This document shows positions 3,677-59,059 of a stretch of 64,000 nt of DNA, piece by piece. Origin of the DNA: Balanoglossus misakiensis (lineage: Eukaryota > Animalia > Hemichordata). Positions within the stretch are counted from its first letter, which is position 1. Each line of letters starts with the position of its first letter. The position numbers and the translations under genes are program-made. The notes below the pieces were generated by a model, which searched no databases, was not told where the DNA came from, and saw only the letters and a list, made by a program, of their open reading frames with translations. The DNA is taken from contig CM082576.2 in NCBI GenBank assembly GCA_040954595.2, positions 18,523,028 through 18,587,027 on the forward strand. The letters are read 5' to 3'.

Positions 3677-6600
3677 ACCTCCAAATAACAGCTGAAGGGA
3701 TCATCTGCTGCAATTTGAATATGGCGCCAATTTTACATGAACAAAGGAAAAGTTGAACTTTGACCTTTCAAGACGCACTATTTTGATGGGGTAAAATGAA
3801 AACCATGTACTCACCAGATTGAAGTTGAAATAAAGGTTTATTTCCCTCATATAATGTTGTCATGGCTTGTTAAATAAGTGAATGAGTGACAGTAATTACT
3901 ACTTGTGGCTAAAAATCATCCCAAACTGATTGGGAATTATGTATGTTCACGATTTTCTGAACACTAAAATGATCTTGAACGCGGGCGGGCGCTAATGGTA
4001 GCGTCCATGTCAGTTGCTAGGATACGCGTATACGATCAGCTGATTTTACCCACAATGCATCACGCCAACTAAGGCATTACGTAATGGCACCCCTGGACGA
4101 GCGTCCCAGGGTAAGGATAATTTACGAGGCGGAAAATACGAAAAATCCACCGCTAAACAGCTTTATTTTCTGACACCTCTGGTCGTAATCGAAGGTTAAC
4201 ATGTTCGCCCATTTCAAGATTACGATACTGTGTTTGAAAACGAAGTTAATGATTCAGCATAACCCTATAAATGTTGGAATTTTGGCTGCCGGTCAATGGG
4301 TAGTCGATAATCTACATCGTCAAAATATTATGGCAGCGAAATACACTACAGTATGAGTCCTATCAGAGAAAGTTGACGGGTCATAAGGTGAAACTAAAAA
4401 ATAATAATGGGATTGTGAGCATCTAGCGGTGGATTTTTGGCCTTCTTTTAAGAATATCATTTTCGACCCCCAAAATGCCACTATTTGTCACATGATAATA
4501 GTTTTGGAGGTTTTCTCGGAAATGTCTCATTTTATTTGCTTGTCTTGAACATGAATTACATCAACTGATTGGCTGGTGTGGTTACAATTGTTTATTATGC
4601 TCGATTAGGACGTTAGCCAATCACATGAAGCAACATCTGCATGATACTATCGAATCAGAGCGCGAGCTCAAACGGATTAGGAGAGACATCTTGACCGCGT
4701 CTCTGAAAAGCCAAAGGTCATTGTTTAAATGATAAAAAGGATTTAGCAAAGTTCACATCAAAATAGAGGAAAAATATGCACCTATCTATTATGTTGTTGA
4801 TTGATTCATTCCAAGGTGTACATTAAGAACTGTCCCTCATTTGACTTAATAATCCAAATTACACAAACAATAAACGCATAAATTTATTGTTATTAATGAA
4901 AATACTGGTAGAGTTGATAAGCTGAATACTGGACATTTAAGCATATCTCAATTTGCAAATATAGAACTGGAAGTGAACATAGTATCAATACCCAAACAAC
5001 ATGAAAATCACGCACCCTTTTTTAAAACTCTAGACCAAGGTAAAATAATTGCCTGAACATTTTTCATCAGATCCCTTCTATATTTCCAAACAATTCTTGA
5101 ACACAAATCCAAAATCCAATGGTCACATAATCTAATCCAAACACACCCTTCAAATAAATCTATGTCATATAATCCAATCAAAGCACATATTTCAAATACA
5201 TTTACATCCAACAATTGTGGAATTAGAAAATGTGGAATTGAAAGTCTCTAGAGCTGCCACTTTTTAGCATTAATTTCCAACTTAAATTAGTCCATCTAAA
5301 TAAGCTTACTTAGGTATACATGAACACCTTATCGATGCCCGATTATGACTGCATGTTGCAATTTGAACACTTTTGTATTAAAACGGTGCCGCACCTATTT
5401 CATCAGCCTCCATACAAACAGTACGCAGCTATCGTGGTTTGCGTTGCCAAAAGATGACAAACTGATGCAAATGCGAGTAATATGGCTTAAGTTGAGGATT
5501 TAGAGGATAGGGAATATATTTGAAGTATTTTATTGTTGAAAAATGTGAAATTTGGCAGCTATACAGGCTTTAATAGACAGGCATTGAAATGACTTTACAA
5601 ACAAATTTTTCTTGAATGTTTAAGACAGACAGAATCAACCCACAGTCAGCCTCAAATATATAAACTATTACAAAATGTTAATTAAATGGAAAATTTTGAA
5701 AAAATTTGCTTGGCCACTCATTTGATTGCATTTTTTCCATTTCATATTTTAGGCATGGTATATCAATATAATTTGTTGTGTTGTGTATATATTATGCTTG
5801 AAAACCAATTGACGGAAATATTAATTTAGAATAATGGTTATATTTTGAGAAATCACAAAGATTTCTACATCACTCCCACATCATTGGTTGCTTAGCAACA
5901 GACATTCACCCTCCAAGCAAATTAATATCCTTTGAGAAGTATCATGTGGAGAGGATCATGCAGTCACATAATCTTTGATTTGTACCATCCACCATTTCAT
6001 TGTAGGCTTTATCATAAAGGTGTTGTTTGGATTTCTGGCAGTTTGTAAGGTGATATGAGAAATGCATTCCTTTCTGGCAAAAGACAACAACGTGTACTGC
6101 AAATTAATAGCTGGAATCATGATGATGATGATGATGATAATAAATATTATTTTTTTAAAAACAATATTTTGAAAATGACTGTAAAAGAGATCGCCCAGCG
6201 TCTCTCTCATATACAGGAGTGACGTCGTAAAGACACACAGCTCTGCCCAGCATAGCTCTGGACTTATACGCTGTTTGGGTCAACGCTGCTCTCCGTCCCC
6301 ACAGCTATGGAGCCATCCATAGGAAAATCCGTTGGGTGCGGAGCAAAATGATACGCACCGATTTTCAAACAATAAACTACATGAACATGTACATAATGTT
6401 GTCAGAAATAAAGATCGAACGAAAATTTCACAAATGGGAACCTACTTGACGTGTTTGTCGCCGAATCGTAAACGTCGTTAATGCAGCGCCGTAAAACTGG
6501 TGACCCTCCCATACAAACATGGACGTTCGCCTTCATTTAAGTCATGTGATCAACACGTGACACGTGTTTTACTATGCCAAGCAGAGCTACATGGTGCCTG

Positions 6601-6778
6601 CAAACTGCATGTGGCTAAAACGGCACATATTCTAAGTTGTGCGTTTAATGTATCAGTAGAACAATACCTTCATTTTGCAGCTGTGTTGTTTTCATGTTCG
6701 CGGAAAACTTCTTTGCCACCATCGGTTTAAAACTATGAAAGCCAGTTGGGGACATGTACATACGCAATAAATAAAAAA

Positions 6779-7271
6779 TTATCTCGAGATCTCGAGATAA
6801 TTCCATTCGTTTTCCTGACTTTTTATTTTTTTATCTCGAGATCTCGAGATAATTCAAGTTCGTTTTCCTGACTTTTTATTTTTATATCACGAGATCTCGA
6901 GATAATTCCATTCGTTTTCCCGACTTTTATTTTTTTATCTCGAGATCTCGAGATAATTCAAGTTCGTTTTCCTGACTTTTTATTTTTTTATCTCGAGATC
7001 TCGAGATAATGCTATTCGTTTTCCCGACTTTTTATTTTTTTATCTCGAGATCTCGAGATAATTCAAGTTCGTTTTCCTGACTTTTTATTTTTTTATCTCG
7101 AGATCTCGAGATAATGCTATTCGTTTTCCCGACTTTTTATTTTTTTATCTCGAGATCTCGAGATAATTCAAGTTCGTTTTCCTGACTTTTTATTTTTTTA
7201 TCTCGAGATCTCGAGATAATCCTATTCGTTTTCCCGACTTTTTATTTTTTTATCTCGAGATCTCGAGATAA
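6779..7271. repeat. Left TIR array: 10 copies of palindrome TTATCTCGAGATCTCGAGATAA, period 52-53 bp
   Basis: Palindromes at about 6779, 6831, 6883, 6935, 6988, 7040, 7093, 7145, 7198 and 7250, with near-identical linkers. Confidence 0.95.
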
Positions 7272-7710
7272 TTCTCTCGAAAGAGGGCGGTGTGTTGGTA
7301 GGGGGACTGTCCAGAGAGGACCATGCATCGATATCGGTCCAGAGAGGGACATGCATCGATATCGGTACGGAGAATTGGCAAGCAAGCACTCGGTGTATTC
7401 AATAGTAGGAGTGATCGTCGGTTTCAGAGCTGCATGCTGCATCGTATCATCAGACTGAGTGCATGAGTCTTGGTAATTAGTTGACATTTCAACTTCGTAA
7501 TATTTATAATTACTAGTTATACGTACTGGGACAAATTACCGAAGTCTTGGCCTGAGATTACTTTCCAAGTTGGCAAGAAAACTGACTCAGTGGTAAAGTT
7601 ACTAAACAATTGGTTTCAATATTATACTTTATTCATTATCATTATACGATAATTCCTTTTATCTAATGCGACAATTAACATTCCTCCTCTATCGAACAGA
7701 TAACGTCACC

Positions 7711-9678
7711 ATGGAAAGAGATGATATAATCCGTATCTATTTCAACATGGGCTTCAACTACAGTGAAATCCTGGCTACTTTAGCTGTCAATCATAACGTT
7801 GTCATTAGTATGCGTCATCTTAAAAGATTACTGAAGAAACTCGGACTTTTCAGACGGAAGTACCATTCAGACATCAATGAGGTAATAACATTTCTGAGAG
7901 AAGAGGTTGACAAATCTGGAAGACTCCACGGCTATCGGTGGATGCATTTAAAGTGTGTCCAGAGAGGATTGGTTATCGACAGGGAGAGTGTGCGGTTGTT
8001 ACTCCAGATCATTGACCCCATAGGTGTGGAATTAAGAAAGAGACGTCGTCTACGCCGTCGCCAGTATGGGTCTCCTGGGCCGAACTATATGTGGCACCTA
8101 GATTCGTATGACAAACTTTCCCCTTACGGAATAGCAATCAATGGGTGTATAGACGGGTTTTCCAGGCGTGTAATTTGGGCTCAAGCTTATCACACCAACA
8201 GTGATCCGAAGATTATAGCAGGGTACTTCATCAAAGAAGTTGAAAGTCTGAAATCTTGCCCCCAAAACATGCGAGCGGATAGAGGCACAGAAAATGGACA
8301 TGTTGAACAGTTCCAGAAGTTTCTAACAAATGATGACAACTGCTTTTATTATGGCAGCAGTCAACTCAACCAACGCATAGAACGATGGTGGGGTACATTT
8401 CGCCAACACTGTGGACAGTTTTGGTTGGATCTTTTCTACAAACTAAAGGATGATGGAGTCTTCAGTGGTGATTATCTTGATAAAGATCTGGTCAGATTTT
8501 GCTTCCTGAAAATGATACAGGTAAGAAGAAGAATTTGGGACTTAAAAAATAATTGTCTTTCCTCAATCTGTTACACTATCACTTATACTGTATATACTTT
8601 AAATACTTATACAGAAAATATTGCTAGGATTGATATTATATAGTGAAAACGTACAATACAATAAAATATAAGAAGTCCCATGTATAAACTGACTAACAAT
8701 AACCCTACGCTCTTCCAAATGGGAGGAGTATAAAAAAGAACGTTTTTATGTATTAAAAAGAAAGGACTGCTCACATATTTTGGTTTAAACCTTCAAATAC
8801 AAAGTAAAAAAGGCTTAAAATGTGCTGTACATGTGTTGATATGTATCATGATGAACACAAATCACAACCTGCAATGCATTGTGTGTGTGATTTAAGACTG
8901 TCCTTGTCTACTTATTCCAATTGTCCATTTTATGCACCTCTATCCTGCATGCATATGTTGGACAACATTTTAGACTTTCCACTCCTTCGACAAATACCTT
9001 ACTATTAATCTCGGATCGAATACTGTTGGTGTGATAAGCCTCATCATAAATTACACGCCAGCTGGTAAACCCGTCTATACACCAATTGATAATCTAATAT
9101 ATGTACATTGTTATAATTATAATATTTGTAATTTTATTCCGTTTGTTTGGTTATATTTCACTACAATAAATTAATTTTAGGTGTACCTTCCCGTCTGAAG
9201 AGTTCATGTAGATGAGGTGTCACCATGTATGTATCTTTTAGATATCCTATAGTACCTAGGGACTATGTTTAACTGATGCATGTATTAAACTGCTAACATT
9301 GAACTTCCTCATACATTTTGTGCCTGTCATTTTATAATTCAGGATGAACTGGATGATGCTGTAATGGAATGGAATTGTCACAGGATCAGTCGTTCACGTA
9401 ACGCAGTCTCTCCCATCGGGCGACCTCACATGATGTTCTTTGTCCCGGAGATGTATGGAAGTCATGATTTCGGATCAACTGTTTCTCAGGAACAGATTAA
9501 CACATGCCGAGAGGAATGTGTGTTCAAAGGAGCGTGCCCCTGTGATGAAGATTTATTCGAGTACTGTGTCTCATACATGGTCGACAACAATATGCATTTA
9601 CCTTCTGACCCATATTCTGCTGTGGAATTGTACGTGAATCTCCGAAATTCTATAAAATATGAATCCTTATCTGACTAG
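7711..9678 (+). CDS. IS3EU-like DDE transposase (HTH/Clr5-like N-terminus plus rve integrase core), ~381 aa, 2 coding exons
   Basis: Exon 7711-8520 (donor CAG|GTAAGA) joins exon 9343-9678 (acceptor TTCAG|GAT) in phase 0 with no stops. Motifs WHLDSYDKL, GCIDGFSR, RADRGTEN, NQRIERWW, WNCHRI. Confidence 0.9.
8915..9090 (-). other. Degenerate antisense copy of the transposase catalytic-core exon inside the transposase intron
   Basis: Reverse complement of 9067-9083 equals 8144-8160 (17/17) and of 9022-9039 equals 8185-8202 (18/18). Colinear gapped similarity covers about 8137-8310. Confidence 0.85.
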
Positions 9679-10202
9679 CAAGACCTTACTGTAAAAGGAA
9701 ATTATTATACATCACCCAAACAACAACAACAATGTCACTTCCATGCAAGGAACTGGATGAATTAAAGAAAGATATTTGTCAACACAACAAAGTTTTATTA
9801 ACTTTCAGAACATAATGACAATATTGTTCATCTTCAACACTGAAGTAATATGAAACTATGGCACAGACTTTGTGTTAATGTTAGATCTAATTCTGTAAAG
9901 TATAATACTGTCAACGCAAATAAAAGCTGAAATACAACAACTTTGTGGCTCAACTGTTTGCACCTTAAAACCACATGATGCCCAGGCTTGGTTGTAGATG
10001 TAAATATGTAAACAAACAAACAAACATGTTAATAAAGAAACTAAGTATACAGACGATAAGTGACAAGTAAAGCACTGATCTTCTTTGGTAGAGTGGAACA
10101 GAGACTACTCCTAGTTGTTTGTTTACATTATATCTACACCAATAACCAAGCCTGGTCATCCTGTGCTTTAACCATTATGTCACACACTGTGTCACATAGT
10201 AA

Positions 10203-10409
10203 CTGAATAAGTAACTGAATAACTCCCCACAACAGGCTGAATAAGTAACTGAATAACTCCCCACAACAGGCTGAATAAGTAACTGAATAACTCCCCACAA
10301 CAGGCTGAATAAGTAACTGAATAACTCCCCACAACAGGCTGAATAAGTAACTGAATAACTCCCCACAACAGGCTGAATAAGTAACTGAATAACTCCCCAC
10401 AACAGGCTG
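10203..10409. repeat. 34-bp minisatellite, ~6 copies (CTGAATAAGTAACTGAATAACTCCCCACAACAGG)
   Basis: Direct tandem copies starting at 10203, 10237, etc. Confidence 0.95.
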
Positions 10410-10797
10410 CAATAACACATCAAGTATTTAGCTTCTCCATATATTAGATAATATGTGTAAACTTTTAACGTAATCAATGATAAAACAATTTGTAGGAAAT
10501 ATGACAGTAAATGGCAACTGTATGAACATTTAAAGAAAACACTGAAAATAGTGCAAAGTTACAGGCGCATCCCTTAATGAATCCACATAAATTCACCTCT
10601 TCCATGCAGCAAAGAGGTGACTTCTGACACGTCAGGTTCATCATTGACATAATCATTACTTTGCATACCAAGTGACTTTACACAAGTATTCCCTGTATTC
10701 TTTCTATCAATGTAAGCCAAACACAACAATATTGTCCCTTTAATTCATGTAATAACTCACCATTGCTGTTCTACCAATGGAAACAATATCAATGGTC

Positions 10798-13319
10798 TCA
10801 AATAATATCCATGTCCCAAAAACCACTGTTCAAAACTGCATTGAACTCACTTCTGAATTCTACGAAGTTGGCATATGACAATGGCAGTTCAAGCACATTG
10901 CCACATGTGTGAGCAACTGGACGACGTTGTAAACCATCAAGTTTAACAAATGACACTTGAATCGGCTCTGCTGTCATTATGTCACAACCAGTGCAATATC
11001 TCAGGAACTTCTTTAGAGTACTTTGTTCAAGTTCACGGATGTATCGTTTTAAGTGATTAGCAACAGCCCTCTCATCATTATTCAAGCATTCGGCGATTTG
11101 AAGATGTTGTAGGACTTTCTTTGTTGTTGGTTTCTTGTCATTATACAGTCTATCCAAGTTCTCTTTGCCAATTTGTTTGCCTAATGGCTGTAAGATTGGT
11201 CGCCAACTATCAATGACAAACATTGGCTCTTGTACTATCTCTTTATGCGCTATTTCTTGCAGAATGGATCCAATGTTTTCTTTGGTTGGCAGTCTTTTAC
11301 AGTCATGTCGGTCTAACACTTCAATTAACTCATCTTCTTCTACTTCTTGGAAGTTCTTCATTGCAGCTTCAAATACTTCACGGTCCGATTCAGACAGGAA
11401 GTGATAATACACTTGAAGTAGACTTGCCTCTTCACACTTCTGGTCTCCAAACATTACTTCTTCCATGAATGGCTTTGCAAACTCAATAGGGAAGTAATCC
11501 ATTTCCTTCCAACCCTTCATGATTATTCTTGCTACAGCTTCCCATTTTTCTCTTGGGTAATCATGCCTAATGAATGGCACCCGGCAATTCTTTCCAACTG
11601 TGCAACATTCATAGAACTCGGACCAAAAACTTGTAAAACAGTCTCTCACAACTCCACTACCACTACCACGCTCAACATTACCTCCTGGCATAACCATGGC
11701 CACATTGATAGGACATGCCATAATCTTTGGATCTGAGAATTCTGAAATCATGTCATTCAAAACGTCACTCCTGTGTATTACAAGTGTTCTAGTCTCCACT
11801 GGGTCTTGATCTTCACTGATATGACTGGTAGTGTCTTGGGGCTGGGATTGGCTAACAGGTTCATCATTTTCAAAGAACGGCAATGTAGAATCAAGGCTTT
11901 CTGCTGAGTTACTATTGGAACCCCGTGATCCAAACTGAACAATGTTTGAATCATTATCACTAATCACCAGTGGTTCTGCATCAGAATCGACTGTCTCTAA
12001 TGTGACTTCAGAACCTACGTCAGGGATGGGTTCAGACTGGAATCTGCTACAACTGGGCATACCATGATCATGGTGAACTGTATCTAGGATATGCTTATTG
12101 TGGTTTCCTGCACTTGGTACACCTGCATCATTGCTCTCATCAGACAACATATCAATAGATTCCTGTGGAAGAGCTTGTGACTGTCCCTTGCTTGCTTGTA
12201 TCGTCTTTGCCGGTGGAACTGGCACATGCCTATCAAGTCCTGGATCAGGTAGATCAGCATCACTGCTGTCATCTGACAATGACACTGATTCTAATTGTGA
12301 CTGCTTACTTGTTTGTCTGCTTTTCTTTTTAGGTTTCACTACCTGTTCACAGTCTTTTCTCTTTGTCATAATGTAGAAGCGGAGCATTCTAAATCCAGTT
12401 ACTTCATACAATTCGCCAACGGTGCTTATTTCATCAATTGTTCTTTCTCCTGAATCTCTTATGTCAACGTGATAACTGTCCATGTCTCCTCGCTGTGATA
12501 CGCCGTTGGGGAAAAACAAATCTTTTCCTGTAGTCAGGAGATCAGCTTTCGTGCTCGACTTACTTACTGATATACACCTTGTTCCACCACCTTTTCTGGC
12601 TCGAACTTGCTTGTATTCTTTTTCAATGAAATCAAAATCAAGCCATCCTATTTCAATTTTCCGCTTTATTTTTGCTGCATGTGTATTACCAAATGGTCTT
12701 GGTCTAGTTGAGGCTTGTCCACGATTACCTTTACTTGATTCTCCCTTGTCATCTGATACACTATTCTGCTTTCCATTTCGAAGGCTAAATTTTTGTCTTA
12801 TTTTTTTCAGTAGTTCTGACTTCCTGCTCTCTCTGTCTGGAACAGTACAAAATAATCTGCGAGAGAAGTCCACAGCAGCAACTCTGTCCCCATAAGATGT
12901 CAAATACTTAGATAACATCTCATCATCCATTAAGAGGATCACCGATGGATCAATCTGAAAATCAATTTAAAGCACATGGAATCTTAGTGCATGCATATGG
13001 GCAGAGGGTGCGGGGGGTCTCGCTAAATACATACATACATGCATACATACATACATACATACATACATACATACATACATACATACATACATACATACAT
13101 ACATACATACGGGTACATACATACAAACAAACAAACAAACAAAGATGGAAAGACTGTCAATGAATATTTTTCCACCTACTAGCCTTAAAGCTCATTTAGC
13201 CATATTTACATATATGCAACAAGAACTAATAAAAAATTTACCTTTTCCTGTTCAAGTCTGTCAATTTCCTCTTCAGGCACTCTGCGTCGTCTAAGAAATC
13301 CATATAGTTTTTCTGCCAT
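10798..13319 (-). CDS. SAM-like + HECT-domain E3 ubiquitin ligase-like protein (~744 aa), transposon cargo
   Basis: Exon 13319-13242 (MAEKLYGFLRRRRVPEEEIDRLEQEK, GT donor, phase 0) joins exon 12954-10798 (TTTCAG acceptor, IDPSVILLMDD...), fully open. C-terminal HECT motifs SGVVRDCFTSFW, FLRYCTG and RPVAHTCGNVLELP (catalytic Cys). N-terminus is SAM-like. Confidence 0.88.
13027..13110. repeat. (CATA)n microsatellite in the HECT-gene intron
   Basis: Visible tetranucleotide run. Confidence 0.95.
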
Positions 13320-13581
13320 TTTGTCTGATCTGTTTGCTTAAGTAATATTTTTCTGTAAGGAAAATCAACAACAGTTAAATCAAAACTGATGTACCTAAAG
13401 ACAAGCATGAAATAATGCATCAACTTGATTTTTATGAACAGTTTGGGACATTTGAGAATATTATCTCAGAAGGAAAAACTATCTACTTTCTCACCTTGAA
13501 TAAAGTTGATATCTCACCAAAAATTACAGTGAAGCAAGAATTTTGTTCAGAATTTTTGATGAGGAAACTTCTCAATTGTCA

Positions 13582-13735
13582 ACATACATACATACATACA
13601 TACATACATACATACATACATACATACATGCATAAATACATACATACATACATACATACATACATACATACATACATACATACATACATACATACATACA
13701 TACATACATACATACATACATACATACATACATAC
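13582..13735. repeat. (CATA)n microsatellite
   Basis: Visible tetranucleotide run. (CA)n at ~14236-14273 and (TA)n at ~14624-14652 lie nearby. Confidence 0.95.
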
Positions 13736-13829
13736 AATTTAAAATAATTTAGGGAGTGATTAAGACTTCAACTTGGACTCTATTGATAATAATATAACTT
13801 TTGTAATAAATGCCATCGGTGCTTAAATC

Positions 13830-14145
13830 TTCATTATATTATACCAGTATATTGATGGTGTAAATCACGCTATTTGATTGGTCGAGACACGACACGTGAC
13901 CGTGATATATTAGCCATATACCACAGTCATATATCATAGTCAAAGAAAATGCCTTTTTAAAATGTTTAATGCAAAGTTTCAATATACTGGCATAATATAA
14001 TAGCAATAAAACACCCCAGTCATGGTATACCACTCGATTTTGACCAGTTCAACTCCATATACGCACTCGCTATCGCTCGTGCGTATATGTCGTGAACTGG
14101 TCAAAATCTCGTGGTATACCATGGCTGGGGGTGTTTTATTGCTTA
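13830..14145. mobile_element. Short non-autonomous element with a long fold-back (stem 14002-14143)
   Basis: ~60-bp imperfect inverted repeat around the core CACTCGCTATCGCTCGTG. Left boundary approximate. Confidence 0.55.
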
Positions 14146-14236
14146 AATATTAAATCAAGTCAATCAATGTGCACAAACATTACACACACACTCATTAATA
14201 CATAGAGACAGACACAGACAGACACATACACACTCA

Positions 14237-14277
<41 letters not shown>

Positions 14278-14620
14278 CCTATTTTGCTTTAATTTTTTTG
14301 TTTGAAACTTTCATATCAACTGAAGAGTTGTTGACGTTTGACCTTGGATGTACTGAGGTCACCATACACACTCACATTTGTCTGTGTCATAATCACAGAC
14401 TGAAGCAAAGTAAAATAAATCACAGCAGCTGTACTGATGTTAACATTGCATTGTTTAATATTCAAGATCAAGTTAAAGTGCATTTATTTATTGGAAGAAT
14501 CCAGTTATGGCAACTTGATCCTAGGCGATGTAACTATCCGCCCCACACACAAGTTGAATCATGTATGATATATGTTTCAAACAGCGCGGCATAAGGCCAG
14601 AGTTAGCCTCAAGTTGTGTT

Positions 14621-14655
<35 letters not shown>

Positions 14656-15572
14656 ATGGCATATGTTACATCATGAATCAAAAATCAAGCAAGTTAAGTT
14701 GAGTACGAGAAACTGACAAGAACGTCTCAGTCAACCTATTGCATGCAGCACATTGTCAACGTCGCGTCGATCGTGTTTGGCATGATCATGATGACGCTTG
14801 ACGTGCAAGGCGACTCAATAGATTGCCACATCACAAACCAGTACAAATTGTGCATCGTGTGGTCATGTTACGTGTACGACAAATCTACCGGTTATGAGAA
14901 GGAGGTAAAATCTCAACTTACCAACACTCAGTCAGTCTGATAAGATACGATGCAGCATGTAAGGCAGAATCCGACGAAAAGTCCTGGTACTAGGTCAAGC
15001 TAGTTTCCTATCTACACTGCGTAATGGTAGTTTAGGTGATTTAGGAGTGGAATGGTCGGAGTCCTATGTTAGGCTTGTAGTTATATCGTAGTATGCCAAC
15101 CCGGCGGGGGCGCTCGTCATGTCACGGTCCTGTCGGCCGAATTGCATGATGGGTGGGCGGGTGGGAGCTTGAGTCTCAAGCCGCCGTATAGATGTATAGT
15201 GAGATGTCACCAGATGCACTACTTTCTCTATATTTATATGCTTGTATATACATATTCATAAGTCCTATGCATATTCATCCTAGGTTTAACCAATCATCAC
15301 GCAGTGTAGACAGTTTCCTATCTACACTGCGTAATGGTAGTTTAGGTGATTTAGGAGTGGAATGGTCGGAGTCCTATGTTCCCTTTCCCTTCGTCTCTCC
15401 GCCAATCCCCTCTCTGGTTCCCAAACCTCATCAACACACCCCATAAACACTGTAGACATATCATACATGGCGTTCTCATACTATTTATTTCGTATGAAGA
15501 CAAGTCAAACAAAAACAAACAAAACCTGTACTGAAATCACATGCAGAGGGCAGGACAAAACTCACTCTAATC

Positions 15573-16898
15573 CTATTCTGACGTTGCCATAGAAAGACGT
15601 TGTGTATCTGCTAAAGAATTCATATTCTCGTATACCTCCTGCGCCTCGGTCATGGCTCTTTCCTTCAATTTCATCGCCGGCGCTGACGGTAACAATACCT
15701 TCGATAACTGCATATAGTATGAAGCTGTTGACTGCGTTTTCCATCCAATATGTTGCATAATATCTGGCATAGTTGACCCCGACAATGCTAATGCTATCGC
15801 ACAGGCACTACGAAAACTATGGATTGTCTCACCCTCAAAGATGTCTAATCTAGTCAGGTATTCCCTTAGCCGCGCGTTTGCTGCATTAGTAGAAAGAGAC
15901 GCGTCGCTAATCTTTCCGTCTCTCGTTGTCGAACGAAAAAACACACCTGGGTCTAAGCTCACATTACTAACACTAGCAAAATGTTTGTAAGATACAACCG
16001 CTCGTACTGGACAAATCGTCTCATCATCGTTCAGCATGATGGGACAACTACGAACGTTACCATCTCTTAGTGTTTTGCCCCATACGTGATTTAATAGTAA
16101 CCCTCCATTCTGTAAGGCAACGATATTTTTCGTCTGGATATTCAAGAGATCACCTGCCCTATCACCCGTAAATGCTAGACACAGGAAAAAGGCTTTATCT
16201 CTGGCCAAAATAAACAGCTGAACAGGGTTAATGTTGGGAAATTGATCCAATTTGGAATCTATCTCCTCAACCATGCGACGAACTTTCGCTAACATAATTG
16301 GCTTTGCTTGTCGCGGAACTAAATTTTCGTTCATTTGTTCTTCTGTCACCGACTTCAAATATTCTTTTACTACTTTGTCCGCTGCCGGATTGCCGATGCC
16401 CAATCTACTATCCCAATGGCCACCTCTCCCTATCCGATCAAATATCGTTCTAAGTTGCCCAATATACGAGTCAACAGTCTTAAACGCCAATCGCTTAGGA
16501 CACCGACAGCACTCATGTCTTCTACATTCAGCCGTGTGTAACGTAGTTCTGCCATCTTTGTCTTTCCACACCAGAAACCGAATAACATCTCTTGGCGAGG
16601 CGGAAGCAAGTGTTTTTGGCGGGGCCAGGTTTACCAAAAATTCCTCCAGTTCCCCTTGAAACCGATATGTCCGTGCATTATAGCGAGAGGTTCTAGGTCC
16701 CGACAATACCTCATCCAGACGCTTTTCGATAGCAGGGATGTCAATATCCAACGACTGCTTGTACGGATGGTCGGGCTGATTCGGTCTAGATTGGGCATTG
16801 TAGCCACATGTTTGACAGAAATTATAGCCAACATCATTTGGGTAGTGACACTCCGGACACTGTACTGCTGGCAACCATAATCGTGGCACACCCGTCAT
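15573..16898 (-). CDS. Tyrosine recombinase with N-terminal Zn ribbon and ALOG-type DNA-binding domain (441 aa)
   Basis: CPEC..CQTC; FLVWKDKDGRTTLH..C..CRCPKRLA...IGQLR...GNP (ALOG-like); catalytic GDR, GKT, HSFR, HIGW, YY. Confidence 0.92.
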   Translation of the reverse strand: MTGVPRLWLPAVQCPECHYPNDVGYNFCQTCGYNAQSRPNQPDHPYKQSLDIDIPAIEKRLDEVLSGPRTSRYNARTYRFQGELEEFLVNLAPPKTLASASPRDVIRFLVWKDKDGRTTLHTAECRRHECCRCPKRLAFKTVDSYIGQLRTIFDRIGRGGHWDSRLGIGNPAADKVVKEYLKSVTEEQMNENLVPRQAKPIMLAKVRRMVEEIDSKLDQFPNINPVQLFILARDKAFFLCLAFTGDRAGDLLNIQTKNIVALQNGGLLLNHVWGKTLRDGNVRSCPIMLNDDETICPVRAVVSYKHFASVSNVSLDPGVFFRSTTRDGKISDASLSTNAANARLREYLTRLDIFEGETIHSFRSACAIALALSGSTMPDIMQHIGWKTQSTASYYMQLSKVLLPSAPAMKLKERAMTEAQEVYENMNSLADTQRLSMATSE

Positions 16899-17076
16899 TA
16901 GTAGCTGTAAATAACAAGATCGAAACTAAATACGATTCCACCCAAGTATCTCACACTAACATTTCCGTGTCTTAACATTATAAAACATCAATAGCTGTAA
17001 AATCCGCCCCACCCCAATAGGATTCCTGTAAATTCAGCATATGTATTCGACTGTACATAGGCCTATATATAACATC

Positions 17077-19290
17077 CTATTCCATATCCTCCTGTGTATA
17101 ATCTGTGGTATAATCTAATTTGAATGCCCATATGTCATACAAGGACGGAGTCTGCCCCCACCCATTCTTTCTGGGAACTTCAAAGATATACGACCCTGCC
17201 CGAGCTACTTCAAGACACTTCACCGCCTCCCCATGTAGAATCGGCCACCAATATTGGACGGGTGACGTTTTCGGCACAATGATCGTAGCCAACGCTTTCT
17301 GTTCTTTGAGGAACTTTAATACCGGCCCGACCAAGTGAAAAGGAGGAAACACATAACAATCCTCGCCCGTTAAATCCTGTGCAAACACATCTACCCCCGA
17401 AGTATCGGGCGTTTTCCAAGGCGTAAAATGTCGCAACGGATTCCCATCTCTACCCTGCACAGTATTGGAATCTAGGGCCATTAAATCCACAGAGTGGCCA
17501 TCTTTCCCTCCAAATTCCCTGTCAATCTTCTGCCAATACCTCGAGATTAGCCGTGCATCCTGAGAGGTAAGTTTTCTTGATGGGAAATCAGCTGGATTGG
17601 CACTAGACGGAATATACCGCATTTCTAAGATGATATCCAAGTCATCTACTACCTCATACATGGTCTTCAAGGCGCTATTCATATCCTTGCTTCTACTTCT
17701 GAGATTCTGCCAGCAATGTAAAAGCGTTTTGTTATCCGTATAGGCAATAACCCGGGTATTGCGGACCACACTTTCAAATGACAGTAATGTTCTCTCAAGC
17801 GCCTTACTCTCCTTAAACGCTATCGGTTTTCCCTGCATATCCGTACCCCAGTAATCTCTTATCTCCCCTCTCCTTCCTCCCGCCATACAGATGCCGCCCC
17901 AAGCATACTGAGAAGCATCACTTGCGATCCTTATGTTGACGTGTTTCTCGTCTTTCCATTGACTATATATATTCCCTGCTTCCAACCTCCTCCAGCTTAA
18001 TATTTCCTCCCGTAACTCTGGGTGAAGAAATATCATACCTCCCTCTTTCTCAGCCTTAGACACGGAAGCTGCCATCTGCTGAATATACAATTTCGCCGAC
18101 GGAACGGCTACGGACAACGAAACACACTTCCCCATCAATCTCTGCATGGTTTTGACAGAAACACAGGGGCTACGTAAAATGTCCTCCCGTAAGTTCACGA
18201 ACTTTACTTGTTTCTGATGGGAGATGCTGAACTCTTTCTTAACTGAATCAACTTGAAAGCCGAGGAACTCCAAACATTGAGTTGGTACCACAATACACTT
18301 CTCAAGGCCAAGAAAGTAGCCAAGTGATATCATTACAAATGACATAATAAAACATGCAGCCTGGGCCTTTTCCATGTCAGACCATCCATGGGAAGAATGA
18401 AGTCGCAACTGTCCTGCATGTCTATCATCGATATACAACAATGATGGGACTCCATACTTTCGTACCTCATTCATTGCAACCGAGCCTATGGTCTGGTATA
18501 TAAAGGGTGAACATTTCCAGCCAAAGGGGATTGTAGCACACACAAACCACCACCCTCCCCATTGAATACCTAATAAAGCTCGGCTTGTGATGTTGATCAA
18601 CACATGGTCATAGCCACTTTTATCGTCCAACTTAGTTTGAAAATGACCTTGCTCCAGGTATCTTGGTACATCAGTAACTCTGTCTAAGCGAAATGGAAGG
18701 TCTTTCATCCAACAATTTAGAAACCTTTCATCGTGGCACAACCTAGGTTTTGTCGGTTCGATCGTCAATGGCATGACTAAATACGGAGGCCTCACTTTTC
18801 CAACCTCGCCCCAGACTTCAAGTGCACCAGAACGAACCCTTTCTAAAATGGTGTGGCTGATGAAGTCTATGTGACTCTTGCAAATAGTGTTATTTGGAAA
18901 ATACACACTTGGTGGGAATGCTAGATCATACTCCTTTCCCTGAAAATTACCATGGAAAGGAACAACGAAGTCGAACACAGAAACACCATTTTTTATCCAT
19001 CCTCCCACCAACTGTTCGTTTTCTTGTCCTTGAAGGATGGCCAGCCATTGGTCACGTTGTTGATGAAGCCCCCCTGCCAAGAATGTTCTAGGATTCCGAA
19101 AATGCAAATCCCTAGATGACGCCTTTACCAAACCATTCATAACCATTGATGGATGTGGGGCCACAGTAGTCGGAGCGGGATCTCCCTTCCAATCAACCCA
19201 GTCAACATTCCGTAACAGGTAGTCGTGATACGCTTTTCTTGGATTAACGGATACTTTTCGTTCCCAATCTGGTATACGTGGAAGTGAAAT
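17077..19290 (-). CDS. Pol: reverse transcriptase + RNase H + DNA N6-adenine methyltransferase-like domain
   Basis: LDDKSGYDH, IPFGW, YIDD (RT); SDAS, YTDN, NPADFPSR (RNase H); DLMA...VDVF...YVFPPF (DIRS MT). ORF opens at a TTTCAG acceptor (19290). Confidence 0.93.
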   Translation of the reverse strand: MSLPRIPDWERKVSVNPRKAYHDYLLRNVDWVDWKGDPAPTTVAPHPSMVMNGLVKASSRDLHFRNPRTFLAGGLHQQRDQWLAILQGQENEQLVGGWIKNGVSVFDFVVPFHGNFQGKEYDLAFPPSVYFPNNTICKSHIDFISHTILERVRSGALEVWGEVGKVRPPYLVMPLTIEPTKPRLCHDERFLNCWMKDLPFRLDRVTDVPRYLEQGHFQTKLDDKSGYDHVLINITSRALLGIQWGGWWFVCATIPFGWKCSPFIYQTIGSVAMNEVRKYGVPSLLYIDDRHAGQLRLHSSHGWSDMEKAQAACFIMSFVMISLGYFLGLEKCIVVPTQCLEFLGFQVDSVKKEFSISHQKQVKFVNLREDILRSPCVSVKTMQRLMGKCVSLSVAVPSAKLYIQQMAASVSKAEKEGGMIFLHPELREEILSWRRLEAGNIYSQWKDEKHVNIRIASDASQYAWGGICMAGGRRGEIRDYWGTDMQGKPIAFKESKALERTLLSFESVVRNTRVIAYTDNKTLLHCWQNLRSRSKDMNSALKTMYEVVDDLDIILEMRYIPSSANPADFPSRKLTSQDARLISRYWQKIDREFGGKDGHSVDLMALDSNTVQGRDGNPLRHFTPWKTPDTSGVDVFAQDLTGEDCYVFPPFHLVGPVLKFLKEQKALATIIVPKTSPVQYWWPILHGEAVKCLEVARAGSYIFEVPRKNGWGQTPSLYDIWAFKLDYTTDYTQEDME

Positions 19291-19357
19291 CTGAAAGCAA
19301 ACCAAATAGCCCAGTTAACAGGAGTGACTGGAAATTTAGTACCCAAGTCAACTCCCC

Positions 19358-19394
<37 letters not shown>

Positions 19395-19541
19395 CATGAA
19401 ACTCACTTCTCACATTCGTCGTCTCCCAAACAAATAAAGCCAACATAAACAATTTCTTCGTATGCAGCAAGCCGTTCCACATGAACTTTATTATTTAACA
19501 CCAACCATGAGGTCTGTCACGAAATCTACCATGACACAGTT

Positions 19542-20759
19542 TTACTTTTTTCTTCTGTCCCTTCTACTATCTCTATCATAATCATCACGACTAAAGCAGT
19601 TTCGAGAAAAGTGTCCCAATCGTCCACATCTCCAACATCTCCCACTTCTCATCTTTCCTGGCTTTCTCTCATACGAGTCCTTCGTTCCACTCGCTTTCTT
19701 GACTTTCGCGATCTTTTCCATTACATCGGCGTGTTCTTTCGAGCCCACTAGCGCTAGTACCATGTTTGCAATCGCTGGTGATTGCCGCTCTTTACGTAGA
19801 GCTCTCAGCATAGCTATGTATTTGGGATATTCCGGGTGTTGTATTTCTAGCGCTGTATCCACCACCAACTGGAACCGTGCCAAGGCCTCTTCTGGGACGA
19901 AAATGCATTCTTCTCGCTCGGCATAGAGGCGAAGTTCCGCCAAAGCTCTTTCAAATCTCTCCTGTCCTTCTCTGACGGTAACGTCATGAGCCCGTACCGT
20001 CTGCAGCATCTGGCGATGAACAAAAAACCAGAAGACATCAATATACAGTGGCAACATTCATGCATATCACTTGCATGAGAACAATAGATTCAGCCACACC
20101 TCAAGTCGCAAGTGAGAACAATGGCACTGGTTTCACAGCTGCCCATGTCGGCTCAAAAAATTTTTTCCACCATACCGCGTCAACCCGTGAAACGGGGCCG
20201 CCAATTATCCTCGTCTTACCCACTTGCGGCAATGGGGACGACATTTGCTTCCAATTTCACACCTCTCCTCAATATCCGCGTCGACCTGATTTACAGGGAC
20301 GCCAACAGCCACATGCCATACATCGGTAGATAGCCGTAAGCCGCTCCCGATCCCTCCAAGAACCTACCTGTTCCGGCATCGTTCACTCCATATTCCTGAA
20401 GAGAAAACCTTCCGAAGCATAGACCCACATGAAATTGCACTTCCCCAACCCGTGCTAAACTATTGACGGCAGGCCCAATGACCTCTCCACATATTCTGGC
20501 TTAATTCATTTGGAAGTGGTAACACTGCAAAAAAATCCAAACTCACCGGCGCATTCGAAACTGGTGTAGTCATGGTAGTATACGCTGGCACCGTTGTAGT
20601 TGCTGCCGTGCGAAGGCTCTGCGTCGCTACTATGGTGCTTGCCGTCGTTGTTCTCGTACCTACAGACGCCAATAACGTGGGGTTTATCACTGGGGTTTGC
20701 AGAACTGTCTTCCCCTGAGGAGTGGCACCCGCAGCACGCGAAGGTCCAGCTGAAGTCAT
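19542..20759 (-). CDS. Gag-like protein with CCHC zinc knuckle, probably spliced
   Basis: Exon 20009-19542 has CWRCGRLGHFSRNC. Candidate first exon 20759-20547 (T/A/P-rich, donor CCG|GTGAGT). Possible small exons at 20395-20368 and 20285-20220 are unresolved. Confidence 0.75.
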
Positions 20760-21015
20760 GACGAGCGCCCCGGACACTGGTAAACTTGCGTCTCAAGCCG
20801 CCGTATAGATGTATAGTGAGATGTCACCAGATGCACTACTTTCTCTATATTTATATGCTTGTATATACATATTCATAAGTCCTATGCATATTCATCCTAG
20901 GTTTAACCAATCATCACGCAGTGTAGACAGTAAAAGAACGCCATATTCTCTGTACCGATACACCGCCCTCTCTGGACAGTCTCCGTACCAATACACCCGC
21001 CCTCTTTAGACAAAT

Positions 21016-21458
21016 TTATCTCGAGATCTCGAGATAAAAAAATAAAAAGTCGGGAAAACGAATTGGAATTATCTCGAGATCTCGAGATAAAAAAATAAAA
21101 AGTCGGGAAAACGAACTTGAATTATCTCGAGATCTCGAGATAAAAAAATAAAAAGTCGGGAAAACGAATTGGAATTATCTCGAGATCTCGAGATAAAAAA
21201 ATAAAAAGTCGGGAAAACGAACTTGAATTATCTCGAGATCTCGAGATAAAAAAATAAAAAGTCGGGAAAACGAATTGGAATTATCTTGAGATCTCGAGAT
21301 AAAAAAATAAAAAGTCAGGAAAACGAATAGCATTATCTCGAGATCTCGAGATAAAAAAATAAAAAGTCAGGAAAACGAATGGAATTATCTCGAGATCTCG
21401 AGATAAAAAAATAAAAAGTCAGGAAAACGAATGGAATTATCTCGAGATCTCGAGATAA
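21016..21458. repeat. Right TIR array: 9 copies of the same 22-bp palindrome, linkers inverted relative to the left array
   Basis: Palindromes at about 21016, 21069, 21122, 21175, 21228, 21281, 21333, 21385 and 21437. Confidence 0.95.
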
Positions 21459-23469
21459 TTTTTTATTTATTGCGTATATACATGTCCCCAACTGGCTTTC
21501 ATATAAAACCACTGCATCAGGTGAATCTCAATTTTTAAGAGCGATACTTCAAACATGCAGCACTGTTTACAAATCGGGGTCAAAGGTTATACAAGAATAA
21601 CCATGTACAGTTGGTATTTTTCGGATGTACCTCTGGCCATGGCCTTGGTCTATAAATTGTTCTTGACAACATATATTTTTAAAGATTTTGGTTTACTGAA
21701 TTACATCTATAGCTTATAGTGATGGCTGTTTACCTAATAATTATTTTAACAATGCCAACTTAGCTGGCGCTGGATCGAGGGTACAGGACTATCCTAGGTC
21801 AAGGGTCAATCGTGAATGTTTTGGTCGCGAATCAGCTGATCTTTTACAACAGCGTGTTACGCCCCTTTTTTAAATTTCTCATGAGTGGAGACGTCAGTGA
21901 AAGAACATATTTCGGATAATGGAGCATTCTTGGCAGTGTTTTCAAAGGGTTTCGCAACCTTTCTACATGGGACGCGGCGGCGCTTGGCAGAACTTTGCGA
22001 GGTGGTCGTCATCACAGGTCGCACCGTAGTTGAGAGAGAGAGCCATGACACTGACAGAGCCGGGTGAGTGATTGAGATCCTGGATCAGTTGCCGTCACTC
22101 AGATCACTAGACATTCTCTCTCATTAGGGTGTAGCTACGGTGTTGCCACGGGACCTACGACGTTTTATCGTGACGTCGGTGTTGCCCCGACCGGCCAGGG
22201 AAGTATATCAGATATGATGAGTCCGGTGATGACTTGGCTTTACGGCAGTCGCTGTGCCTGTAGATAAAGGAAAGGAACAGTACAACGCGCCGCCAGTGTG
22301 ATTAGCATCGCTTGGAGCAAGACTAGATGACAGACATCGCCAGGGTCGTTGGCAAGACCTTGGCGGGCAGAGATGTGTGACACAGGTCCTCCTACAGGTA
22401 AGCCAGTCTTAATTCTTTTACATGCTTTTCAGAGTCAGCTTTTTGAGATGGTGAGATCTCTGTCTGGTGGTTTCTCTGTGTGACCTTTAGCTCTGCATAC
22501 AGCCGGGAACACACAGACCTGTACGCAGAGCTATGTGACCTTCTGAGTCATATAATAATGTCACATTTAGTACTACATTATCTCTATGGAAACGCAGCTA
22601 GGGGGAGGGTGGAGGGGGGGGGGGGTTCTATGCTGGTTTCCCCCATCATAGACCCACCCGTGACCCCCACCACAAAAATCTGTAGTGAAACAACAGCCAA
22701 ACCAGTGCACTATATCACAGTCCCTCTATTACATACTGTGACTGTATAAGCTAAAAAATAAGACATTCACTTTTTGAAATAAACATTTCTCTGTTAATTA
22801 TCTCTGAAAGCTTGATATAGGAGAACATTTCGGTTACTTCAATGTCACCATTGTTTTCACTACTATCACGTAACAAGCAATTTAAATTACCTTCGCAAAA
22901 ACAGTATGCTCTATGTTTTTTTGTTAACGCTTTGAGATGTCTGGCTCAAATCTTCGTGAATGCAAGCTGTCATAACTTTTGTACAAAGTAGTGTCTCATT
23001 TTTTTTTAAAGCAACTAGCTTGATTTTTAAAATGAAAAAAAACTTCTGATATACTAGGAATAGTAGGATTTGCTCCAGAAGTTTTCTGAATTACAATGCA
23101 CTTAACGGGACATTAGCTGTAACTTTTGGCTTTAATTGATGTACATATATTTTTGTTCTGAGTATCCATGGGAATTTCTTGTTCTACTCCAAACAGCATG
23201 CTAATATACCCATTTATACTTCACTTGTCAACATAGCCCGTGAATGTGTAATGTTATCATTCACATTTTTTTACTACTGTTACGTAAATATGCAACATGT
23301 CTAAAAAATATGTTTTTATAGAATATATTTATTTATTTAGAGTAAAATGTTTTTGGTGACATTTAAATATTTAGTGGATGGTATTTTATACATCAATTGT
23401 GGGTTTCAACATATTGTTGGGAGTAGCACAAGAATCTTAAGTGGCCACATAGAATTAATTTTCAACCTT

Positions 23470-55331: not shown

Positions 55332-55369
55332 TAATTTTTAATGGGTATATTCTTGATAACTCATCACCA

Positions 55370-58972: not shown

Positions 58973-59059
58973 TGACAGTGATATAACTATGTTATAATGT
59001 TACATCGACAATACATAAGTTTGGGGATATGTTGTCTCAAATGATCAAATTGAGACAAA

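What the first reader, a model, noticed from the sequence alone, without database searches (positions are those of the whole stretch)
6734..21503. DNA transposon carrying its own intact HECT E3 ubiquitin ligase (transposase + SAM/HECT two-gene module)
Seen: one element with matching TIRs and a perfect 6-bp TSD encloses two intact, spliced, tail-to-tail genes. One is a 381-aa integrase-core transposase. The other is a ~744-aa protein with a SAM-like N-terminus, a compact middle domain (RKIEIGW...GGGTR...LFFPNG...LRFY, possibly beta-grasp), a long acidic/Ser linker and a HECT domain retaining PVAHTC. Known: HECT ligases use this Cys, and SAM domains oligomerise. Inference: the ligase is a dedicated accessory protein rather than a decayed capture, since it is intact and appears to be transcribed from the right-TIR side. 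It could degrade host silencing factors or limit transposase dosage. Many annotated G2E3-like invertebrate/fish genes might be such cargo. I cannot verify whether this pairing is already catalogued.
Basis: partly seen in the sequence, partly recalled or inferred. Interest (0 to 1): 0.85.

Follow-up and report, generated by a model that had tools for sequence, protein, structure and literature searches.

The report
Transposon carrying its own ubiquitin ligase
This cut-and-paste jumping gene of an animal genome carries, facing its transposase, a second gene for a predicted ubiquitin ligase that related elements in fish, frogs and marine samples keep in the same place and under selection, so the ligase is the element's own gene and likely tags the transposase to control jumping.

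Summary
Confirmed. Window 6734-21503 is an IS3EU/GingerRoot DNA transposon: TA termini, 56/57-bp matching ends, TAAAAC duplication. It encodes a 381-aa DDE transposase and a convergent 744-aa SAM-like / ubiquitin-like / HECT protein with Cys710.

The pairing is a trait of the lineage. 21 of 28 metagenome loci with at least 2 kb downstream of the ligase carry the transposase there, and 0 of 28 carry it upstream. One locus is a complete element. Fish and frog genomes list the two genes under neighbouring accessions. The Cys is kept in 97 of 98 homologues, and HECT dN/dS is about 0.19 between diverged copies.

This copy's ligase may therefore be silent.

Most likely the ligase ubiquitinates the transposase. 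Structure-prediction support is weak (0.43 against 0.04 for the best control, on a fish pair). A host substrate remains a real rival.

I found no paper reporting the pairing, but Repbase entries could not be read. This scan had already noted the pairing in at least 9 genomes.

The parts
6728..6733 (+). left target-site duplication TAAAAC
6734..7274 (+). left TIR (TATGAAAGCC...) with 9.5 copies of a 52-bp subterminal repeat (6779-7274) holding a palindromic core; likely transposase-binding array (inferred)
7275..7495 (+). predicted promoter and non-coding first exon of the transposase (candidate donor GT at 7473); homologous to the matching region at the right end
   Evidence: local alignment score 165 vs best of 300 shuffles 36; inner part alone 86 vs 37
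7711..8520 (+). transposase coding exon 1 (aa 1-270; D131, D190 and E224 invariant in 25 of 25 aligned sequences)
8521..9342 (+). transposase intron (GT..AG); the coding match also ends or breaks at residue 270 in L001, L003 and L014
9343..9678 (+). transposase coding exon 2 (aa 271-381 and stop)
10203..10415 (.). 34-bp tandem array (6.2 copies) between the two stop codons
10798..12954 (-). ligase coding exon 2 (aa 27-744): rest of SAM-like domain, ubiquitin-like domain, disordered acidic/Ser linker, HECT domain
10801..11808 (-). HECT domain (about aa 409-744); catalytic-position Cys710 codon at 10905-10903; conserved Trp739
12352..12675 (-). ubiquitin-like (beta-grasp) domain, about aa 120-227
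   Evidence: best Z 9.1, rmsd 2.5, 80 residues aligned to 5fr6_A; 31 of 50 listed rows match model residues in about 65-209, most of them described as ubiquitin-like domains
12955..13241 (-). ligase intron inside the SAM-like domain, with a (TACA)n tract
13242..13319 (-). ligase coding exon 1 (aa 1-26, start of SAM-like domain)
   Evidence: SAM-like fold from homologue P0001
13833..14145 (.). 313-bp repeat insertion in the predicted 5' intron of the ligase gene; skipped in run contigs
   Evidence: table 5 (shorter side only 29 and 36 letters)
14890..15001 (-). inner half of the predicted ligase promoter / non-coding first exon (candidate donor GT at 14921)
15002..20928 (-). nested tyrosine-recombinase retroelement with split direct repeats (15002/15312 and 15173/20790); gag-like CCHC ORF 20057-19542, RT ORF 19314-17077, recombinase + ALOG ORF 16925-15573. 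Ngaro/PAT-like layout (label recalled)
   Evidence: skipped cleanly by a contig of run X1 with 114 letters on the shorter side
20929..21015 (-). outer half of the predicted ligase promoter, cut off from the gene by the nested retroelement
21016..21503 (-). right TIR with 8.4 copies of the 53-bp subterminal repeat
21504..21509 (+). right target-site duplication TAAAAC

Best explanation
The element is an IS3EU/GingerRoot transposon whose lineage keeps a second, convergent gene for a predicted HECT ubiquitin ligase, and that ligase likely binds and ubiquitinates the element's own transposase. Shown: ends, target-site duplication, both reading frames, domain folds, linkage across many loci, purifying selection and Cys conservation. 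Inferred step 1: the two genes are transcribed inward from twin promoter regions just inside each end. Inferred step 2: the ligase takes ubiquitin from a host E2 onto Cys710. Weakly predicted step 3: it docks on the transposase. Inferred step 4: tagging lets p97 or the proteasome strip the stable integrase-type complex from the new insertion so that gap repair and transcription can proceed, and caps transposase dosage. The SAM-like domain would oligomerise the ligase, and the ubiquitin-like domain would recruit the degradation machinery or the substrate. In this particular copy the ligase is probably poorly expressed because a retroelement splits its predicted promoter. My odds: dedicated element gene about 0.93; catalytically active in the lineage about 0.85; transposase as main substrate about 0.5 overall.
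For: Linkage in DNA: 29 of 80 HECT-bearing metagenome loci have the transposase downstream. Among loci that reach the HECT end and have at least 2 kb downstream it is 21 of 28 (20 wholly on the opposite strand; L041 has pieces on both); 0 of 28 loci with at least 1 kb upstream have it upstream. L003:20-7731 is a complete element with TACGAAAGCC ends and an ATATTG duplication. Neighbouring tags or accessions in annotated genomes: Sarotherodon ACER0C_002508/002509 and 024914/024917; Synchiropus LOC128757643/644, 128746623/624, 128751756/757; Gymnodraco LOC117532431/430; Chaenocephalus KUCAC02_006291/006290; bullfrog XP_073457855/854, 073480620/621, 073453753/754; Xenopus XP_031750185/186. In one unnamed NCBI cluster pair, 9 of 12 transposase entries share a contig length with a ligase entry. 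Selection: HECT dN/dS median 0.19 (range 0.11-0.78; 26 of 27 under 0.4) for the 27 of 69 pairs with dS 0.1-0.7; transposase median 0.125 for 5 such pairs (pairs are not independent). Cys710 is present in 97 of the 98 homologues that cover the column. Trp739 is present in 91 of 95 and lies at Cys+29, the spacing of E6AP Cys820 and Phe849 (PMC6463701 passages). Trees of 27 pairs share 12 of 24 splits; Mantel rho 0.27, reached by 11 of 5000 permutations. Complex prediction on the tilapia pair P0011 + P0136: 0.43 against best control 0.04, runs agreeing in at least 18% of contacts, partner pLDDT at least 71; the tool rates this weak (mark reached by 51 of 78 solved and 2 of 108 mismatched pairs, but at 0.60 or under by only 5 of 78 solved and by all 4 of 180 mismatches that passed). 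Precedent: HIV-1 integrase is ubiquitinated by VBP1-Cul2/VHL at a post-integration step (review PMC3381236, passage; the primary paper was not read).
Against: No activity, substrate or RNA data. The complex score is in the range the tool calls more often wrong than right, and it was run on a fish pair rather than the window's proteins. Deep branches of the two trees disagree: 4 conflicts between splits with support of at least 95, and related HECT domains sit beside two very distant transposase clades, which argues against one tight co-evolved interface. N-terminal regions differ among lineages (L007, L030, L044, L046, L066), as expected if targets change. The canonical -4 Phe is absent (Met741 at -4, Trp at -6), so ubiquitin transfer is not guaranteed. 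7 of 28 loci with at least 2 kb downstream show no transposase. Near-identical pairs often show dN/dS near or above 1 (L019/L058 1.0, L058/L063 1.7, L024/L063 3.6, L003/L064 0.88). The window and run X1 differ at 5 non-synonymous and 2 synonymous sites in the ligase. Individual copies therefore drift neutrally, as expected after insertion, but this gives no sign that this copy is under selection.
Confidence: 0.5

Rival explanations
1. The ligase is the element's counter-defence: it ubiquitinates a host silencing or restriction factor (or chromatin at the element), using its variable N-terminal domains to choose the target.
For: N-terminal regions vary among lineages while the HECT domain stays. 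Deep tree conflicts show the ligase module has changed transposase partners. Fungal IS3EU elements carry TET/JBP genes proposed to counter methylation silencing, and an alpha-kinase opposite the transposase (PMC12730594 passages).
Against: The same SAM-like / ubiquitin-like / HECT architecture holds across echinoderms, molluscs, fish and frogs with dN/dS about 0.19 in the HECT domain; there is no sign of arms-race turnover there, though I did not test the N-terminal domains for positive selection. A weak predicted contact with the transposase exists (0.43 vs control 0.04).
Confidence: 0.33
2. The protein is a structural or targeting cofactor of the transpososome. Ubiquitin transfer is non-degradative (mono-ubiquitin, for localisation or repair-factor recruitment) or weak.
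For: Non-canonical tail W-x-M-D-I-V; very divergent HECT (11-17% identity to solved HECT domains in the top rows); strongly conserved SAM-like and ubiquitin-like domains. An ESM Atlas cluster with a similar SAM-like fold has rva_4 on 24% of its members (a lead only).
Against: The invariant Cys and the surrounding RRP[IV]x[HR]TC motif imply thioester chemistry is selected. Autonomous GingerRoot and IS3EU elements with other second genes exist, so a structural role is not universal.
Confidence: 0.12
3. The HECT gene is a passively captured host gene or a dead passenger.
For: GingerRoot elements are known to carry host gene fragments (PMC6839031 abstract). This copy's predicted promoter is interrupted.
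Against: Fixed convergent position in 29 of 80 loci with transposase identity to the window ranging from about 27% to 54%; purifying selection; multi-copy in single genomes; no close host ligase among solved structures.
Confidence: 0.05

Closest known systems
IS3EU/GingerRoot superfamily (Repbase; Kojima and Bao 2023, PMC10045372: passages and supplement part 12 of 18; Cerbin et al. 2019, PMC6839031: abstract, sections 16 and 21)
   Same: TA..TA termini, 6-bp TSD, integrase-type DDE transposase. By eye, the window's core matches the 'YDKLKPYG' branch, closest IS3EU-1_CGi, IS3EU-2_SK, IS3EU-1_TC and IS3EU-1_DR. IS3EU elements are described as encoding two proteins (PMC10853768 figure legend), and the label IS3EU-1_CGi_2p implies a second Repbase protein.
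   Different: None of the passages read names a HECT ligase as the second protein. 'ubiquitin' occurs 0 times in the main texts of PMC10045372, PMC12730594, PMC6839031, PMC4455052 and PMC10853768. Repbase entries themselves could not be read and may already annotate it.
Fungal TET+ IS3EU families with an alpha-kinase (Kojima 2025, PMC12730594, passages)
   Same: A protein-modifying enzyme gene in the opposite orientation to the transposase inside an IS3EU element.
   Different: The enzyme here is a HECT ligase with SAM-like and ubiquitin-like domains; no TET/JBP or kinase; animal hosts.
Host HECT E3 ligases (HUWE1, UBR5, E6AP, TRIP12, NEDD4 family)
   Same: Bilobal HECT fold (VIA Z 23.1, rmsd 4.1, 315 aligned to UBR5), HTC catalytic motif, an aromatic residue 29 after the Cys.
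   Different: Only 11-17% identity in the top rows, Met rather than Phe at -4, a SAM-like plus ubiquitin-like N-terminus not seen in the matched entries, and encoded inside a transposon.
Transposon-borne ubiquitin/SUMO-pathway domains (Ulp1 and OTU proteases of Mutator, Ginger1, Zisupton; F-box of Zisupton) and ClpX remodelling of the Mu transpososome - recalled, not from a call
   Same: Mobile elements that encode or use ubiquitin-family or remodelling enzymes around an integrase-type complex.
   Different: Those are proteases, adaptors or host ATPases; here the element encodes a stand-alone writer enzyme on its own gene.

Membership tests
IS3EU/GingerRoot | TA..TA termini | tested here: met
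   TATGAAAG...CTTTCATA; definition in PMC10045372
IS3EU/GingerRoot | 6-bp target-site duplication | tested here: met
   TAAAAC; ATATTG in L003
IS3EU/GingerRoot | Integrase-type DDE transposase with first D 100-300 residues from the N-terminus, of the IS3EU lineage | tested here: met
   D131/D190/E224; rva_4; motif-level match by eye to Repbase IS3EU cores. No joint tree with the Repbase sequences was built.
IS3EU/GingerRoot | Terminal inverted repeats over 30 bp | tested here: met
   56 of 57 terminal bases match; 150-nt arm 91%
IS3EU/GingerRoot | Second encoded protein | tested here: met
   744-aa convergent gene; two-protein description in PMC10853768
IS3EU/GingerRoot | Mobility (other insertions or an empty site in this species) | tested here: inconclusive
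   No genome held. Run X1 contigs from both flanks stop 30 bases into each TIR (6490-6763, 21474-22531), as expected if other insertions share the ends, but one base short of the tool's bar for bridging. No empty site could be sought.
HECT E3 ligase | Bilobal HECT fold at the C-terminus | tested here: met
   Pfam above cut-off; Foldseek E 1.8e-12; VIA Z 23.1
HECT E3 ligase | Catalytic Cys in the C-lobe HTC motif | tested here: met
   C710; 97 of 98 covering homologues
HECT E3 ligase | [quoted passage not shown] | tested here: not met
   Met at -4 (89 of 94); Trp at -6 (91 of 95) sits at the same Cys+29 spacing as E6AP Phe849, a possible substitute
HECT E3 ligase | Ubiquitin thioester formation and transfer | not testable with these tools
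   needs an in vitro assay
SAM domain | Five-helix SAM fold | tested here: inconclusive
   No Pfam SAM hit on the window's exon 2, which lacks the first 26 residues. Homologue P0001 residues 1-62: feature score 0.84 (lead only) and TM 0.60-0.66 to SAM models, under the tool's naming bar.
Ubiquitin-like (beta-grasp) domain | Beta-grasp fold | tested here: met
   Z 9.1, rmsd 2.5, 80 of 83 residues to 5fr6_A, followed by USP11 UBL, Ring1B C-terminal domain, ATG8, ATG12, ISG15; pLDDT mostly over 90. Z is modest, and no Pfam family names it.
G2E3 | N-terminal PHD/RING fingers plus HECT (recalled) | tested here: not met
   No PHD or RING hit in Pfam; the model shows SAM-like and ubiquitin-like domains instead

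The most novel reading that the evidence does not exclude
A large, ancient branch of IS3EU transposons (1,300 clusters at 50% identity match the ligase profile at E <= 1e-30) encodes its own E3 ligase to ubiquitinate and dismantle its transpososome after integration: an element-encoded counterpart of ClpX for phage Mu and of host E3s for retroviral integrase. The convergent 'second gene' slot of IS3EU would then be a swappable module of protein-modifying enzymes (HECT, alpha-kinase, possibly DUB-ATPase) that all act on the transposase.
Probability: 0.4. Interest if true: 0.85.

Novelty: new variant of a known kind. Interest (0 to 1): 0.66.

Why it matters
How eukaryotic integrase-type transposition complexes are taken apart, and how elements limit their own transposase, is poorly understood. 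An element that brings its own E3 gives a two-gene system in which this can be tested directly, including in zebrafish, Xenopus or cultured fish cells, where near-intact copies are annotated. It also means that many 'uncharacterized HECT-domain' genes of fish, frogs, echinoderms and molluscs are transposon genes, which affects counts of E3 family expansions. IS3EU vectors may need the second gene to work. A compact HECT ligase with a non-canonical tail is of interest to ubiquitin biochemists.

Tried and rejected
No genome was held, so copy number, sister copies and an empty site could not be examined. No RNA holder was listed. HECT relatives were not found in genome contigs (0 of 9 candidates) or viral contigs (0 of 107). 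Runs X3 and X4 cover only scattered pieces at depth near 2 and were not used. X1 and X2 are one sample and may be related to the window's source, so they are not independent support; depth was not read as copy number. Inverted-repeat searches on 12 loci showed long end repeats around both genes only in L003, L014 and L028; the other contigs are too short or lack them. The twin-promoter homology seen in the window was not found in L003 or L014 (scores 28 and 18), so it is element-specific. The one 'upstream/overlap' transposase hit (L063, E 8e-7) overlaps the HECT hit and was rejected as an artefact. Tree set: 21 DNA loci (window included) and 6 annotated pairs; loci with under 200 aa of HECT or under 150 aa of transposase in one ORF were left out. 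Annotated pairs were matched by neighbouring tags or contig length, not by DNA. dN/dS: 42 of 69 HECT pairs were left out of the median (dS under 0.1, above 0.7 or saturated). The ESM Atlas gave no named family for the middle domain. A PDB sequence search gave only weak HECT hits (best E 1.4e-4). Literature: 0 papers for IS3EU+HECT, for transposon-encoded+ubiquitin ligase+HECT, and for the five-term disassembly query. HECT+transposase+DNA transposon gave 28 papers, 25 listed, none relevant by title and abstract start; one checked by passages (PMC4284660) was a false match. IS3EU+ubiquitin gave 2 and G2E3+transposable element+HECT gave 1, seen as listings only and apparently unrelated. The review I expected to describe IS3EU anatomy was not held. 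Repbase records and most subscription journals are outside the library, and 17 of the 18 parts of the PMC10045372 supplement were only term-searched, so 'not in print' is not proven.

Full report
1. Observation. The element runs from 6734 to 21503. Both ends start TATGAAAGCCAG and match in 56 of 57 bases, and TAAAAC flanks both sides (chance about 3.6e-4 at fixed boundaries). Arrays of a 52/53-bp repeat with a palindromic core lie inside each end. A plus-strand gene (7711-8520, 9343-9678) splices to a 381-aa protein with Pfam rva_4 (E 3.8e-25) and D131, D190, E224 invariant in 25 of 25 aligned sequences. A minus-strand gene (13319-13242, 12954-10798) splices to 744 aa with Pfam HECT above its cut-off. 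Splicing is predicted; no RNA holder was listed.

2. 40% of the span is a nested tyrosine-recombinase retroelement at 15002-20928, with CCHC, RT and recombinase/ALOG ORFs and split direct repeats (the Ngaro/PAT label is recalled). A contig of run X1 joins 15001 to 20929 with 114 letters on the shorter side, so a form without it exists and the IS3EU unit is 8,843 bp. With that joint, about 240 bp inside the two repeat arrays are homologous in inverted orientation (score 165 vs best shuffle 36; inner part 86 vs 37). Each copy ends in a candidate splice donor, and each ATG is preceded by a candidate acceptor. I infer twin promoters with non-coding first exons pointing inward. The retroelement sits about 80 bp from the ligase-side donor, so this copy's ligase is intact as coding sequence but likely cut off from its promoter. 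The twin homology was not seen in L003 or L014.

3. Family. Kojima and Bao (PMC10045372; passages) define IS3EU by TA..TA termini and usually 6-bp TSDs and merge it with GingerRoot (PMC6839031; abstract and two sections). In their supplementary alignment (part 12 of 18) the window's core matches IS3EU-1_CGi, IS3EU-2_SK, IS3EU-1_TC and IS3EU-1_DR at motif level, compared by eye. The named ligase hit with the highest identity is from Ptychodera flava (52% over 54% of the query), consistent with a marine invertebrate, perhaps an acorn worm (inference).

4. The second protein. The AlphaFold2 model of exon 2 has mean pLDDT 75, with ordered N-terminal helices, an ordered middle domain, a disordered linker and an ordered C-terminal domain. 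The C-terminal domain matches HECT structures (Foldseek E 1.8e-12; VIA Z 23.1, rmsd 4.1, 315 residues) at only 11-17% identity in the top rows. The middle domain matches ubiquitin-like folds (best Z 9.1, rmsd 2.5, 80 residues). The N-terminus of homologue P0001 resembles SAM domains (TM 0.60-0.66, feature score 0.84; leads under the tool's bar). Cys710 is kept in 97 of 98 covering homologues, and it lies 34 residues from the end in 81 of 87 proteins where the motif was found. The canonical -4 Phe is replaced by Met, but a Trp (91 of 95) sits at Cys+29, the spacing of E6AP Cys820 and Phe849 (PMC6463701 passages).

5. Is the pairing a lineage trait? Yes. The ligase has 110 close homologues in fish, frogs, echinoderms, molluscs and a hemichordate, often several per species, and 1,300 clusters at 50% identity match its profile at E <= 1e-30. 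Of 80 metagenome loci fetched with the ligase profile, 29 have a transposase downstream. Among those reaching the HECT end with at least 2 kb beyond it, 21 of 28 do (20 wholly convergent); none of 28 with at least 1 kb upstream has one there. L003:20-7731 is a complete 7.7-kb element with TACGAAAGCC ends, an ATATTG duplication and subterminal arrays; L014 and L028 show inverted end arrays around both genes. Neighbouring gene tags or accessions pair ligase and transposase in Sarotherodon, Synchiropus, Gymnodraco, Chaenocephalus, Hippocampus (same contigs, tags 4 and 12 apart), bullfrog and Xenopus; this is a proxy, since that DNA was not read. Against: 7 of the 28 loci lack a transposase hit. 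One, L025, is identical over 202 codons to linked L062 and has little room; L053 has a weak remnant; the rest may be deletion derivatives or true unlinked genes.

6. Selection and history. For the 27 of 69 HECT pairs with dS 0.1-0.7, dN/dS has median 0.19 (26 under 0.4; one 0.78); five transposase pairs give median 0.125 (pairs overlap and are not independent). Near-identical pairs often sit at or above 1, and the window differs from run X1 at 5 replacement and 2 silent sites in the ligase, and at none in the 1,110 covered coding bases of the transposase against 4 in its intron. This is the usual transposon pattern: selection acts between transposing lineages while single copies drift. Trees of 27 pairs share 12 of 24 splits, including the clade of the window, L003 and the fish elements; deep splits show 4 supported conflicts, and Mantel rho is 0.27 (11 of 5000 permutations). 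So the genes co-diverge recently, while the ligase has been swapped between, or retained across, the two deep IS3EU transposase branches.

7. Mechanism. A gene kept for so long by a selfish element must help the element in the cell that expresses it. I favour action on the transposase. Integrase-type strand-transfer complexes are stable and must be removed before repair (established knowledge, recalled), and HIV-1 integrase is ubiquitinated by a host E3 after integration (review PMC3381236, passage). A complex prediction for a neighbouring tilapia pair scored 0.43 against 0.04 for the best of three controls, with at least 18% contact agreement and partner pLDDT at least 71. The tool rates this weak: passes at 0.60 or under came from 5 of 78 solved pairs and from all 4 of 180 mismatches that passed. 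The idea for this test came from an earlier scan note (e1-8148478), so it is not an independent discovery. The counter-defence rival is favoured by variable N-termini, partner swapping and fungal IS3EU TET cargo (PMC12730594). Odds: transposase substrate 0.50, host factor 0.33, non-degradative or structural role 0.12, passenger 0.05.

8. Novelty. The superfamily, its two-protein layout (PMC10853768 legend) and an opposite-strand alpha-kinase in fungi are known. I found no paper naming a HECT ligase in IS3EU or as a transposon gene, but Repbase records and a key review could not be read, and Repbase labels imply annotated second proteins. This scan had noted the same pairing in at least 9 genomes; those notes are unchecked and count as leads only. 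Verdict: real, a new variant of a known kind, interest 0.66.

Noticed in passing
window 15002-20928: Nested tyrosine-recombinase retroelement with long open RT and recombinase ORFs; the recombinase ORF carries a zinc ribbon and an ALOG domain (Pfam E 1.2e-22). It is polymorphic: skipped in an X1 contig, while its family is present in that run at much lower contig depth.
   Followed up: partly
window 13833-14145: 313-bp insertion with an internal hairpin and very high summed contig depth in runs X1 and X2, skipped in their contigs; likely a high-copy non-autonomous element.
   Followed up: no
window 559-3400 (minus strand): Run of broken ORFs, one with a SAP domain (E 3.3e-5, just under the cut-off); possibly a decayed transposon gene.
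   Followed up: no
window 32348-43297: 75-bp and 200-bp tandem arrays flank a BEN-domain ORF (34106-34546, minus) and broken Transposase_21-like ORFs (39501-41744, plus); may be one decayed EnSpm/CACTA-type element with a BEN accessory gene.
   Followed up: no
window 44023-50851 and 53998-60895: Near-identical (94-99%) direct duplications spaced about 4.2-5.2 kb; tandem segmental duplication or assembly duplication.
   Followed up: no
L066:587-3148: Divergent 854-aa ligase variant with SAM-like and ubiquitin-like regions plus an extra middle region that looks by eye like a UBX-type domain, paired with a convergent transposase; would fit p97 recruitment if confirmed.
   Followed up: no
L007, L030, L044, L046: Ligase variants whose N-terminal regions differ from the window's SAM-like / ubiquitin-like pair and have no convincing Pfam match.
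   Followed up: partly
L017, L022, L030, L034 transposases: Second transposase clade (about 490-520 aa, 'NHKLI' type) with a long helical N-terminal extension and an HTH; also paired with HECT genes.
   Followed up: partly
ESM Atlas cluster, row 10: A eukaryotic cluster with a SAM-like fold close to the ligase's (TM 0.72) in which 24% of members carry rva_4; hints at SAM-transposase fusions or merged gene models.
   Followed up: no
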